A DNA stretch of 64,000 nt from Candidatus Methylomirabilota bacterium (GTDB lineage Bacteria > Methylomirabilota > Methylomirabilia > Rokubacteriales > CSP1-6): contig JBKPAK010000156.1 in NCBI GenBank assembly GCA_046726415.1, forward strand, positions 25,335-89,334, given 5' to 3'. A program made the position numbers. Below are positions 23,701 through 26,700 of the stretch, piece after piece. Position 1 is the first letter of the stretch. Every line of letters starts with the position of its first letter.

Positions 23701-26700
23701 CGAAGGCCAGCCCGAAGAGGGTGAGAAAGGCGGCCGGCGCCTCCGCGAGGTTCGGTACGGTGGCGAAGCCGGCGCACGCCGCGATCAGAGCGACGGCCGC
23801 CACCACGACGACGAGGAGTCTCGACCGAATCATCCCCATTCGGATACTGACGCCGGCCTCGGTGGCTCCCTGCCGCCGCTTCGAGAGGGGACAGCGGGCG
23901 CGTCGGCGTCGGGCGCAACGGACGAGATCGTGATGACGGGAATGGCGAACCGGTCGGCCCGCATGCCCCCTACGCTAGCAAATCGTGTGGCCGTGCACGA
24001 TCAGATGCCGAAGGTTCGTCGGGGGCACATAGCCCCTCCCATCGTTCGACCACGCCTCAAGGCACGCCGTCATTCCGCCCGCGGGGTGCCAAGCCTAGTG
24101 AATCCTCCGGATCGTGATCTGGGCGACAGGGTTGCGCCAGTCTCGCGCGCTGGCGTCGAAGTCGCCGATGCCGTGGATTCCGGCATGGATGTGGACGTAC
24201 CTCTCCTCGCCGCCGGCGGGCTGCCCGCCTCCGCCCGCCCCGCCGCACTCGGTGAAGTTCGGACCGGGGATGCTGGCACACAACTCGTCGTTCCGCTCGC
24301 TGCCCGCGTCGTAAGCCGGGGAGAAGTACGTCAGCACTTCGCTCCCCCGCGGCGCCCGTACGCCGTTGAGGGCGAAGAAGCCGTCGTTGGTGGGGATCAG
24401 CATCGCGGCAACGCTGATGTGATCAACACCGAAACCGGCGCCCACGAGGATCGTCTTCGACTGACCCGGCCCCACGAAGCCGGCCGGCGGATCACCGGAA
24501 TCAACGACGTCGCGCACTCCGCGCGTGGCCAGGAGCAGCGCGGCCAGCGGGCCGGTGACGCCTTCCTCGGCGAGGGTGGCCAGCTCCACACTGGCCGGCG
24601 CGCCCAGCGTGAACAGCGTCACGCCCTCGCGGTGGCTGGCCACCAGGACAGGCGTGAAGGTCTGGCCCCGGGTCAGGTTCGTCACCCTCACCTCGAACCG
24701 TCCACCGAAGTCCAGGGCCGAAACTTTATGCGTCGGGATGAGCCCACTCACCAGGATCAGACCAGCAGCGACCGACCATATGTGCCTCATGTGATCCTCC
24801 TCGGGTTCTCGAATGTGCGGATTGACCGCGAGGTGGATCTACCATTTCAGTACGAGGTAGGTGTCAAAACGCTGTGACGCAGATGTCAAATCTTGTGGTG
24901 GGAAGAACGGATCAGCGGGTTGACGCTCACGGCCGAGGTCATCTGGAACCCGCTGACCCTCTGCCGATCGTCGATCTCTTTGCCGGGCGCTGGCGCCGGC
25001 TGACGCCCGTGGGGCGCCAGCCGCGGCAAGACGCAAGCGCCCTATTCGAGCTTGCGGTAGTGCAGGCGCACCAGCTGGGCCGGGCTCTTGTCAGTCTGGA
25101 TGAGACCTGCGTCCATCCGGTCCTTGAACGCCCGCTCCAGATTCTCCGCCACGTCCACCTTGCGATCGAAACCGAGGGCGGCCGCGGAACTGGCGGCGGC
25201 CTGGACGGGCAGAGCGGCAGGGTAGTAGCCGCCCGCTTGCGTCGTGATCACCGCCCGTGCCGGATTCTCGGCGACCCACTGCTTGGCCCGCCGGAATGCA
25301 CGGACGATGGCCGCCGCCTTGTCCGGGTGACGGTCGACGATCTCGCGCTTGATGCCGAAGAAGCAGCAGTACTCCCGGTTGTACGGCGCCTGGTATGTCT
25401 GCGAGAACAGCACTTTGGCAATCTTCCTCTCGCTCAGGATGACCTGCTGGGGCTCGGTCACGCCGACCGCGTCGAACTTGCGCGCCTTGAACCCCTCCGC
25501 CACGTAGTCCCCGATTCGGGGCAGGGCGTCCCACGGCATCGGCCTCAGCGTGACATCCTTCGTCGGATCGACGCCGGAGGTCTTGAGCTCGGTGTTGACG
25601 AAGGTGAGGCCCTGCACGACGCGGAAGGGGGCAACCCACCACGGATTCATCTCGACCGTTTTGCCCTTGAGATCCGCCGCTGACGCGAGCGTGGAATCGA
25701 TCGGGACCATCACGTCCATGCAGCCGAAGTTCATCCCCTCGACGATGTAGTGCCCGATCTTGCCGGCCGCCATGTGATGGAGTTGGTCGACGTCAATGAA
25801 CCCGAAGTCCGCCTCGGTCAGCCCCTTCTCCGTCTTGACGTAGAGGAAATTCGTCTTGCCCTGCTCGACCGCGCCTCGGGTGTCGACGGGGAGGCCCTGA
25901 ACCGTCAACCCCTCCTCGGCGAAGAAGCCCTTCACGAGGGCCGCGTACAGCGGCAGCATTCAGGTACCCGCGCCATACCCCAGGGTGTATTTCTCCTGCG
26001 CGGATGCCGGGGCCATCCCCGCAGAGATGGCCAGGACGAGGAGTGTCGCGCAAACGCCCAACTGCTTCATGGCCGACTCCTTGACTGAAGGAGCTTGGTC
26101 ACTGCGGTGTGAGTGGCCAGGTCGTCCCAGTCACGCGCTCCGGTCTCGCGGACCACGACGTCGCCGCCACGGTCAATCAGATACGTGGTCGGCAAGCCAA
26201 GCACTCGGTAGGCACTTGCCGTGGACCACTCGGGGTCGAGCACGATGGGGAACGTCACCTTCACCTCCTTCAGGAACGCCTCCACCCCCGCCGTGGACAA
26301 CACGTCGAGGTTGATGGCGACCACCTCGAGGCCTTGATCCTTGTGGCGCTGGTACAGTCGCTCGATCGCGGGCATCTCGGTGCGGCAAGGAATGCACCAA
26401 GTCGCCCAGAAGTTCAGGACAACCGCCTTGCCCCGCTGGCCCGACAGGCTGAGGGCCACGCCGTCCAGCGAGCGGAGAGTGAAGTCAGGAGCCGGAAACC
26501 GCGCCGGTCCCACCGCGGGCGGGCTCCCCATGCGCTCCAGGGCGACGATCAGCCACTCGGGGCCACGCGATTGGAGGGTGAATCGAACGACATCGCCCGG
26601 CTGCAGATCCCCGAGCAGGCTCGGCCGCTCTAAGCGAAACGCCATGCGCATGGCCGGCATGACGCCGCGGATCGGCCCATGATCGAGGGTGATGCTCCCG

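What a model noticed while it worked through the whole genome (the two positions that open the first line are those of the whole stretch)
25042..26070. SsuA/NMT1-like periplasmic binding protein with selenocysteine
This 342-aa ABC-type substrate-binding protein has its signal peptide upstream of an in-frame TGA (51294-51296; U37 in 'GAGTUMLPLYAALVKG'). An orthologue in another genus has a second TGA exactly where G000 has Cys116. This suggests a Sec/Cys pair at the ligand site. A CusF-like gene lies next to it.
Evidence so far: - Full-length orthologues with TGA occur in 2 of 150 genomes of the phylum: G117 at 81% identity with 1 TGA, and G038 at 59% identity with 2 TGA. - The alignment shows U37 conserved and C116 exchanged for U. 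- The SsuA family scores 45 bits against a cut-off of 163.5, and SaoX 22 against 300. - The SECIS-like hairpin has loop CGUGA.
(Added by a program. Inside this text positions count along the whole contig: contig position 25,335 is position 1 of the stretch shown here. "Call 12" and the like, gene names such as g00115 and contig names such as C1 are that model's own, and its searches are not shown. The text may have been shortened before it was handed on; [...] marks where a part breaks off. The agent that wrote the report below was given it as the finding of a first reader that could run no searches.)

Follow-up and report, generated by a model that had tools for sequence, protein, structure and literature searches.

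The report
Selenocysteine periplasmic protein with CusF-TlpA partner
This gene encodes a secreted protein of the sulfonate-binding-protein fold that carries selenocysteine in a cluster of conserved cysteines and is always paired with a copper-binding/thiol-reducing helper gene, which points to an undescribed selenium-using metal-handling module in soil bacteria.

Summary
On the minus strand, 26070..25042, a 342-codon frame has a signal peptide, then TGA at codon 37 (25962..25960). The genome has SelA, SelB, tRNA-Sec and SelD. In 78 related loci codon 37 is TGA (37) or TGT/TGC (41), never anything else. A 17-nt hairpin 23 nt after the UGA is fixed at synonymous sites in Sec forms but not in Cys forms. 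It is a real selenoprotein, and it is absent from a 2026 list of 119 families and from NCBIfam. Public sources hold only forms cut at the UGA.

The fold is NMT1/SsuA (pLDDT 90.8), but it is not SsuA or SaoX by score. No ABC transporter genes lie beside it. Sec37, Cys117 (not 116) and Cys235-Cys236 are invariant, and even 23-31% relatives keep them. A CusF-TlpA fusion gene sits beside 63 of 64 forms with an ordinary signal peptide, and beside 0 of 9 twin-arginine-like forms.

My best reading, which is inferred: a periplasmic thiolate/selenolate metal site, probably for Cu(I), that the fusion protein reduces and loads. The main rival is a Sec-based redox enzyme recycled by TlpA. Neither the binding of the two proteins nor the geometry of the site could be tested here.

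The parts
25042..26070 (-). Selenoprotein gene, 342 codons plus stop; NMT1/SsuA-fold periplasmic protein
   Evidence: AF2 model with pLDDT 90.8. Foldseek match to SsuA 3ksx at E 9e-16.
25999..26070 (-). Signal peptide, residues 1-24 (MKQLGVCATLLVLAISAGMAPASA | QEKY); cleavage site read by eye
   Evidence: The region has low pLDDT in the model. It is conserved in frame upstream of the TGA in related loci.
25960..25962 (-). UGA codon 37, read as selenocysteine
   Evidence: Of 78 loci covering this codon, 37 have TGA and 41 have TGT/TGC. The genome has the Sec machinery.
25926..25942 (-). SECIS-like hairpin GGCCCU-CGUGA-AGGGCU (codon 43 third base to codon 49 first base); the loop starts 23 nt after the UGA
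   Evidence: Codons 44-48 are invariant in 30 distinct Sec forms apart from one CTT, and variable in 24 Cys forms. This is the lowest synonymous entropy window in the gene. Free energy is -8.2 kcal/mol. It fits the bSECIS model quoted in PMC13188914 section 5.
25720..25722 (-). Cys117 (FGC); replaced by a second UGA in locus L028
25363..25368 (-). Cys235-Cys236 (EYCC), invariant
26067..26828 (-). CusF-TlpA fusion gene, 253 aa; its stop overlaps the selenoprotein start (ATGA)
   Evidence: It is adjacent in 63 of 64 loci with an ordinary signal peptide.
26535..26741 (-). CusF-like domain (residues 30-98) with invariant H50, M57, M60, M62
   Evidence: PF11604 at 64.9 bits. Alignment A3 of 32 sequences.
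26109..26495 (-). TlpA/ResA-type thioredoxin domain (residues 112-240); WCIPC motif at 26385..26396
   Evidence: AhpC-TSA 98.6 bits and Redoxin 86.9 bits. ResA model 126 bits against a cut-off of 170. W144, C145 and C148 are invariant.

Best explanation
The gene encodes a genuine selenoprotein. A Sec-pathway signal peptide sends an NMT1/SsuA-fold protein to the periplasm. UGA-37 is decoded as selenocysteine with the help of a short hairpin 23 nt downstream. Sec37 lies at the junction of the first strand and first helix. Cys117 lies on the first hinge strand and Cys235-Cys236 at the start of the second. Together they are proposed to form a thiolate/selenolate site in the cleft. The protein does not serve an ABC importer. 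It works as a two-gene module with the CusF-TlpA fusion encoded just upstream. In this model the thioredoxin domain keeps the Sec/Cys site reduced in the oxidising periplasm. The His/Met site of the CusF domain then passes Cu(I), or another soft metal, to or from it. This resembles the way TlpA and copper chaperones prepare CuA sites. Shown here: the Sec decoding signals, the fold, the conserved residues and the gene pairing. Inferred: that the four residues converge, which metal is bound, that the two proteins contact each other, and what the module does for the cell (copper sequestration, copper delivery, or a copper-dependent reaction).
For: Sec decoding: SelB 374 bits, SelA 592 bits and tRNA-Sec 71 bits lie on one contig, and SelD scores 336 bits and itself holds a TGA. 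Codon 37 is TGA in 37 and TGY in 41 of the 78 loci that cover it. In 11 of 30 distinct Sec forms no ATG follows the TGA, so restarting translation there cannot explain them. Hairpin: codons 44-48 are fixed in Sec forms. In Cys forms they vary: codon 44 is GTT 10, GCC 7, GCT 5; codon 47 is AAA 15, AAG 8. The entropy of this window is 0.07 bit against a gene mean of 0.89 bit, and the closing pair is G-U 19, A-U 7, G-C 4, mismatch 2. Fold. Site: C37, C117, C235 and C236 are invariant in 31 sequences. They are kept, together with H114, in 18 relatives of 23-31% identity. U replaces C117 in L028, where it has its own 7-bp hairpin. Partner: of 14 neighbouring window genes, only CusF-TlpA recurs across 87 loci. 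It is present in 63 of 64 forms with an ordinary signal peptide and in 0 of 9 twin-arginine-like forms. Orthologues covering both domains at 61% identity or more occur only in the same 3 of 251 genomes. H50, M57, M60, M62 and WCxxC are invariant. No ABC genes were found. Precedent: TlpA reduces the copper-binding cysteines of subunit II before metallation (passage in PMC7558416). Haft and Gwadz read converging Cys and CC/CU motifs in SaoX and SaoB as metal sites (passages and section 17 of 10.1101/2022.07.06.499078).
Against: No coordinates of the model could be read, so the convergence of the four residues rests on topology alone. No metal is shown. Copper is inferred only from the partner's CusF domain, and the matching of its residues to the E. 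coli CusF ligands is recalled, not tested. A more distant CusF-TlpA fusion stands alone in G029, beside der, so the fusion is not exclusive to this module. His114, which is nearly invariant in the wider group, is Asn in the window's own protein. The twin-arginine reading is by motif only: TIGR01409 gave 14.5 bits against a cut-off of 16.7 for 1 of 9 proteins and listed nothing for the other 8. The minimum-free-energy fold of the 76 nt after the UGA is no better than shuffles (z = -0.31). The hairpin case therefore rests on conservation rather than on energy. Expression of the selenoprotein gene is not shown.
Confidence: 0.5

Rival explanations
1. It is a periplasmic redox enzyme. Sec37 is the catalytic nucleophile and Cys117 the resolving residue, acting on an unknown, perhaps organosulfur, substrate held in the cleft. 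The TlpA domain supplies electrons for each turnover.
For: Most known selenoproteins are read as redox proteins (PMC13188914 section 7). The second position can also be Sec (L028). Enzymes with this fold appear among the structural matches: Thi5 4h6d at E 3e-15 and DszB 2de3 at E 2e-12. The thioredoxin-fold partner is conserved.
Against: Four conserved thiols including a CC pair, shared with a wide group of binding-protein-like lipoproteins, fit a ligand or metal site better than a two-residue redox couple. The invariant His/Met site of the CusF domain has no role in this reading. No substrate-pathway genes are conserved nearby.
Confidence: 0.25
2. It is an ordinary substrate-binding subunit of a NitT/TauT-type ABC importer encoded elsewhere in the genome, binding a thiophilic ligand.
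For: Pfam NMT1_2 and NMT1 are above cut-off. The best structural matches are SsuA, ThiY, TauA, NrtA and PqqT. Distant relatives score up to 136 bits on SsuA_fam and 97 bits on SaoX, all below cut-off.
Against: SsuA_fam scores 45.1 against 163.5. No permease or ATPase of that type was found among 24 window ORFs or 47 flanking ORFs of 20 loci. The only conserved neighbour is a redox/metal protein.
Confidence: 0.1
3. The TGA is a true stop. The locus is then either a decayed gene or a short leader peptide followed by a cytoplasmic 305-aa protein that starts at M38.
For: ATG follows the TGA in the window. Gene callers in all public sources report forms of about 305 aa.
Against: The signal peptide is conserved in frame upstream. 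Homologues with Cys run straight through this position. In 11 of 30 Sec forms no ATG follows the TGA. The hairpin is conserved. The Sec machinery is present.
Confidence: 0.02

Closest known systems
SaoX (NF040735) and SaoB of the SAO system (Haft and Gwadz; bioRxiv 10.1101/2022.07.06.499078, read as passages and section 17)
   Same: SaoX is described as an SsuA-like binding-protein fold, like 4NMY and 2X26. It has an N-terminal Cys and a CC motif that converge in the cleft. Some members are selenoproteins, and the site is read as metal-binding. 4nmy and 2x26 are also among this model's matches.
   Different: The SaoX model scores only 22.3 against 300. In SaoX the Sec sits at a TU pair at 191-192, not at the N-terminal Cys. 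SaoX is a lipoprotein of a nine-gene locus with an ABC transporter in anaerobes. This protein has an ordinary signal peptide, no ABC genes and a CusF-TlpA partner, and it occurs in soil Methylomirabilota/Rokubacteria, Chloroflexota and Bradyrhizobium.
SsuA / TauA / ThiY substrate-binding proteins (TIGR01728; PDB 3ksx, 2x26, 6ssy, 3ix1)
   Same: The fold is the same (Foldseek E 9e-16 to 9e-14, TM 0.62-0.76), and so are the Pfam families.
   Different: Sequence identity to these structures is 14-17%. TIGR01728 scores below its cut-off. The profile alignments printed for 3qsl, 3uif and 2i48 show no Cys signature. No transporter genes lie nearby.
TlpA with ScoI/PcuC in CuA assembly (review PMC7558416, passages)
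   Same: A periplasmic thioredoxin reduces metal-binding cysteines before a copper chaperone loads them. Here a reductase domain and a copper-binding domain are fused and encoded beside a Cys/Sec-rich target.
   Different: The target is not CoxB or ScoI. The chaperone domain is CusF-like rather than PCuAC. No biochemical evidence exists for this module.
Enzymes of the same fold: Thi5 (4h6d, 4esx) and DszB (2de3)
   Same: They are structural matches. The CC region aligns with the C-F-C stretch of C. albicans THI13 in a weak profile match (E 0.061).
   Different: Both are cytoplasmic and lack Sec, a signal peptide and a TlpA partner. The equivalence of the active-site residues was not tested residue by residue.

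Membership tests
Bacterial selenoprotein (UGA decoded as Sec) | In-frame TGA aligned with Cys in homologues, with conservation on both sides | tested here: met
   Of 78 loci, 37 have TGA and 41 have TGY. See also alignments A1 and A2.
Bacterial selenoprotein (UGA decoded as Sec) | bSECIS: 3-9 nt loop with G in its first two positions, 4-16 bp stem, 16-37 nt from the UGA, free energy of -7.5 kcal/mol or lower (model quoted in PMC13188914 section 5) | tested here: met
   The loop is CGUGA, the stem is 6 bp, the spacing is 23 nt and the energy is -8.2 kcal/mol. The hairpin is fixed at synonymous sites.
Bacterial selenoprotein (UGA decoded as Sec) | SelA, SelB, SelD and tRNA-Sec in the genome | tested here: met
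   All four score above their cut-offs.
Bacterial selenoprotein (UGA decoded as Sec) | Selenium found in the protein | not testable with these tools
   This needs 75Se labelling or mass spectrometry.
NMT1 / NMT1_2 (PF09084, PF13379) binding-protein fold | Score above the Pfam gathering threshold, and the fold itself | tested here: met
   56.2 against 24.7 and 46.8 against 20.5. Foldseek E 9e-16.
SsuA_fam (TIGR01728) sulfonate ABC binding protein | Score of at least 163.5 bits | tested here: not met
   45.1 bits.
SsuA_fam (TIGR01728) sulfonate ABC binding protein | Encoded with an ABC permease and ATPase | tested here: not met
   None was found among 24 window ORFs or 47 flanking ORFs of 20 loci. 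Genes elsewhere in the genome were not searched.
SaoX (NF040735) | Score of at least 300 bits | tested here: not met
   22.3 bits.
SaoX (NF040735) | Lipoprotein inside the nine-gene SAO locus | tested here: not met
   The signal peptide ends in ASA with no lipobox Cys. No Sao model other than the weak SaoX hit appeared among the 7 proteins scanned.
SaoX (NF040735) | N-terminal Cys plus CC motif in the cleft | tested here: inconclusive
   The motifs are present. Their equivalence to SaoX Cys50 and Cys224-225 is judged from the paper's numbering only. No SaoX sequence was aligned here.
CusF_Ec (PF11604), for the neighbouring gene | Score of at least 27 bits and a conserved His/Met metal site | tested here: met
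   64.9 bits. H50, M57, M60 and M62 are invariant in 32 sequences. The mapping onto E. coli CusF ligands is recalled.
TlpA/ResA thiol-disulfide oxidoreductase, for the neighbouring gene | Thioredoxin fold with a WCxxC motif; curated NCBIfam cut-offs | tested here: inconclusive
   Pfam AhpC-TSA scores 98.6 and Redoxin 86.9, both above cut-off, and WCIPC is invariant. The ResA model scores 126 against 170 and the TlpA model 99.6 against 230, both below cut-off.

The most novel reading that the evidence does not exclude
This would be a selenium-dependent periplasmic copper module. An SsuA-fold protein would use an ancestral selenocysteine together with three cysteines to hold Cu(I) or another chalcophile. 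A dedicated fusion protein that is both reductase and copper chaperone would mature it. That would make it the first selenoprotein of this fold outside the SAO system, common in aerobic soil bacteria. The wider Cys-signature group of SsuA-like lipoproteins would then also be metal binders.
Probability: 0.35. Interest if true: 0.8.

Novelty: new variant of a known kind. Interest (0 to 1): 0.62.

Why it matters
This adds a selenoprotein family that current catalogues and annotation pipelines miss. Every Sec-type database entry seen is cut at the UGA. The family comes mainly from soil Methylomirabilota/Rokubacteria, a phylum reported to hold very large selenoproteomes (PMC13188914). It links selenium use to periplasmic thiol redox and copper chemistry through a strictly conserved two-gene module. 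Natural Cys forms occur in cultured Bradyrhizobium, so the idea can be tested directly. The finding also flags a much wider group of SsuA-like proteins with the same Cys signature whose ligand is unknown.

Tried and rejected
1. A complex prediction of the selenoprotein with CusF-TlpA was not run.
2. The ESM Atlas did not take the read-through protein. The natural Cys homologue P0081 gave only generic NMT1 clusters.
4. The minimum-free-energy fold of the 76 nt after the UGA has z = -0.31, so it is not informative.
5. I tested a longer lower stem for the SECIS. The pairs 43.3/50.3 and 42.3/51.3 show no consistent pairing, so it was rejected.
6. The other window neighbours are not conserved beside the gene in any of 87 loci, so they are not counted as parts. 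These are SoxYZ-like, TetR, the spondin-domain protein, the 446-aa membrane protein, two radical SAM genes, GT2, DUF2064, DoxD, YedE-like and DUF302.
7. RNA evidence is thin. Of four runs laid, the one RNA run gave a single identical 231-nt contig, inside the CusF-TlpA gene only (26298-26528), and nothing on the selenoprotein gene. The contigs show neither transcription nor its absence.
8. The TAT signal model scored below cut-off for 1 of 9 proteins and listed nothing for the other 8.
9. Protein entries of 215-222 aa that begin at or just after M121 (P0109, P0119 and others) could be further double-Sec forms. They could equally be fragments cut at contig ends, so this is undecided.
10. Literature: four searches found no paper on a Sec-containing NMT1/SsuA protein other than SaoX/SaoB, or on a CusF-TlpA fusion. 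The search terms were: selenoprotein + substrate-binding protein + selenocysteine + periplasmic; CusF + TlpA + fusion; selenoprotein + Rokubacteria; Methylomirabilota + selenoprotein. Haft and Tolstoy 2025 (PMC12013261) and Deng et al. 2026 (ref. 66 of the review) are not held and were not read. No supplements were opened. Any of these could list the family.
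Full report
**The observation.** On the minus strand an ATG at 26070 opens a frame that runs to the stop at 25044..25042. The frame has a single in-frame TGA at 25962..25960, codon 37. Table 11 gives only a 305-aa ORF starting at M38. Residues 1-24 look like a cleavable signal peptide ending in ASA; this was read by eye. The second cysteine is C117, not C116.

**Is the UGA read as selenocysteine?**
- The genome (7.6 Mb, 98% complete) has SelB (374 bits), SelA (592 bits) and tRNA-Sec (71 bits) together on one contig. SelD scores 336 bits and itself carries a TGA.
- A protein search returned 137 relatives, of which the best 120 are listed. Most hits at 54-100% identity are 295-306 aa long and cover 89% of the query, so they are cut at the UGA. 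Full-length hits at 47-53% identity have Cys at position 37.
- At the DNA level I collected 7 loci from genome contigs and 80 from metagenome contigs. Of these 87 loci, 78 cover codon 37. It is TGA in 37 and TGT/TGC in 41, and nothing else occurs. One Cys row, L094, is doubtfully aligned, and L108 looks degraded.
- The signal peptide continues in frame upstream of the TGA in the Sec forms.
- In 11 of 30 distinct Sec forms the codon after the TGA is not ATG.

**The SECIS element.** Thirty distinct Sec sequences all read GCC CTC GTG AAG GGC at codons 44-48, with one CTT as the only exception. This stretch forms the hairpin GCCCU/CGUGA/AGGGC. The 24 distinct Cys forms encode nearly the same peptide but vary at these codons. 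Codon 44 is GTT 10, GCC 7, GCT 5; codon 47 is AAA 15, AAG 8; codon 48 is GGC 17, GGT 4.

In the Sec forms, 173 codons have a conserved degenerate residue. Their mean synonymous entropy is 0.89 bit. The window 44-48 has the lowest value (0.07) of the 34 five-codon windows that could be assessed. A sixth closing pair shows G-U 19, A-U 7, G-C 4 and mismatch 2. The 17-nt hairpin folds at -8.2 kcal/mol, and its loop starts 23 nt after the UGA with G at the second position. This fits the bacterial SECIS model quoted in section 5 of PMC13188914. Energy alone is not convincing (z = -0.31 for 76 nt), and a longer lower stem is not supported.

**The second Sec.** In L028, a Rokubacteria MAG that is G240, codon 117 is also TGA. 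It is followed by its own 7-bp hairpin (-12.9 kcal/mol), which the Cys117 forms lack.

**Distribution and history.**
- Among reference genomes the gene is rare: 3 of 251 genomes of the phylum, counting the window's own.
- Named records are Methylomirabilota/Rokubacteria MAGs and a Chloroflexota MAG (Sec forms), and three Bradyrhizobium records (Cys forms).
- A tree of 49 distinct full-length rows needs only one Sec/Cys change. The 26 Cys rows form one clade (SH-aLRT 88). Sec rows lie on both sides of the midpoint root, which hints that Sec is ancestral. The root is not established. Partial loci, L094 and L108 were left out of the tree.
- A scan of 1.84 billion representative proteins found 22 hits at E <= 1e-30. 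There is one full-length representative at 561 bits plus fragments, and then scores drop to about 155 bits.

**Fold and site.** The AF2 model has pLDDT 90.8 and pTM 0.86. Its best matches are SsuA, ThiY, Thi5, 4nmy, NrtA/CmpA, TauA, PqqT and DszB. By the model's secondary structure:
- U37 opens helix 36-46, just after strand 27-32.
- C117 lies between strands 107-114 and 118-123.
- C235-C236 open strand 236-241.

These are the loop at the edge of lobe 1 and the two hinge strands, so a shared site in the cleft is plausible. I could not read the model's coordinates, so this is an inference.

C37, C117, C235 and C236 are invariant in 31 family members. The next relatives, at 23-31% identity, keep C235-C236 in all rows and keep C37, H114 and C117 in at least 90%. 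Many of them carry lipoprotein-like N-termini. They score 25-97 bits on the SaoX model, below its cut-off of 300. The window's own protein has Asn at position 114.

**Gene context.** Fourteen window neighbours were searched against 87 loci, and only the upstream gene recurs. That gene is a fusion of a CusF-like domain (PF11604, 64.9 bits) and a TlpA/ResA-type thioredoxin domain. H50, M57, M60, M62 and WCxxC are invariant in 32 sequences.

I counted loci that either have at least 400 nt upstream or show a hit. The fusion gene lies next to 63 of 64 forms with an ordinary signal peptide: 32 of 33 Sec forms and 31 of 31 Cys forms. The one miss is L113, and in L086 the fusion gene lies downstream. 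It lies next to 0 of 9 forms with twin-arginine-like N-termini. Five loci with too little upstream DNA and nine that do not cover codon 37 were set aside.

The gap between the two genes is mostly 3-117 nt, and in the window the two genes overlap (ATGA). No ABC permease or ATPase appears among the 24 window ORFs scanned, nor among 47 flanking ORFs of 20 loci.

Fusion orthologues covering both domains at 61% identity or more occur only in the three genomes that hold the selenoprotein. More distant fusions exist in G029, where the gene stands alone beside der, and in G022. The tallies include five genomes flagged as unpublished (G034, G044, G076, G216, G217). They contributed at most matches to the TlpA domain alone, and no claim here rests on them.

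**Mechanism.** My best reading is a periplasmic selenolate/thiolate metal site that the fusion protein keeps reduced and loads. This follows the logic by which TlpA reduces copper-site cysteines before chaperones insert copper (PMC7558416, passages). The split between signal types fits this. Forms exported unfolded need the helper in the periplasm. Forms with twin-arginine-like signals could fold and load in the cytoplasm. That signal type is read by motif only, however. The main rival is a Sec-based redox enzyme recycled by TlpA. A classic ABC binding protein and a true stop codon are both less likely.

**What is known.** The closest described proteins are SaoX and SaoB (10.1101/2022.07.06.499078; passages and section 17 read). 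The 2026 review's table of 119 prokaryotic selenoprotein families lists SaoX, SaoB and BtuF, but no NMT1/SsuA-type family with Sec at this position (PMC13188914, section 7 parts 1-2). No NCBIfam 20.0 model reaches its cut-off. Two papers that might list the family could not be read. On this evidence I file it as a new variant of a known kind.

Noticed in passing
L028:716-1741 (codon 117): This Rokubacteria orthologue has a second in-frame TGA at the Cys117 position. It is followed 17 nt later by its own perfect 7-bp hairpin (-12.9 kcal/mol), which the Cys117 forms lack. It is therefore a double-Sec form.
   Followed up: partly
proteins P0138-P0186: A wide group of SsuA-like proteins, many with lipoprotein-type N-termini, is only 23-31% identical to this protein. 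They nevertheless keep the same C...GxHxGC...(E/D)YCC signature. They score on the SaoX model only below cut-off. Their ligand and gene context are unknown.
   Followed up: partly
L019 (G000 contig C223): The genome's SelD is itself encoded with an in-frame TGA ('CAGUASK'). An 8-bp hairpin follows 16 nt downstream.
   Followed up: partly
window 26916-28455 (-): A fused SoxY-SoxZ-like carrier (TIGR04557-like, 102 bits, below cut-off) and a TetR regulator lie upstream of the module. They occur only in this genome and in none of the 87 related loci.
   Followed up: yes
window 19073-24790 (-): A same-strand run of genes lies downstream: a spondin-domain protein (NF038123, 136 bits), a 446-aa membrane protein, two radical SAM genes (one matching the SPASM domain), a GT2 glycosyltransferase and DUF2064. 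It looks like a separate maturation or glycosylation cluster of unknown product.
   Followed up: no
window 30581-31450 (+) and 35004-36170 (+): A YedE/YeeE-like transporter ('GGGCGSGT') and a DUF3179 protein ('FCPLCNSG') belong to families that have known Sec forms. Here both are the Cys forms.
   Followed up: yes
L117:1498-2304 (-), genome G029: A more distant CusF-TlpA fusion (48% identity, both domains, His/Met and WCHPC kept) stands alone between der and a CDP-alcohol transferase-like gene, the latter named by eye. It has no SsuA-like partner, so the fusion also exists outside this module.
   Followed up: partly
protein P0079: A 371-aa database entry joins a CusF-like domain directly to the selenoprotein family from about residue 96 onward. 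It could be a real deletion or fusion, or an assembly artefact.
   Followed up: no
L030, L031, L062, L068, L085, L087, L092, L100, L109: A Cys-form subclade, which includes Bradyrhizobium, has twin-arginine-like N-termini. The protein entries with such N-termini also carry an extra CC pair near residue 295 ('ECCLSFD'). In L030 and L062 a transposase or integrase lies nearby.
   Followed up: partly
window 26298-26528: One soil RNA-library contig (run X15, 231 nt, no differences) lies inside the TlpA part of the fusion gene. No RNA contig was found on the selenoprotein gene.
   Followed up: partly
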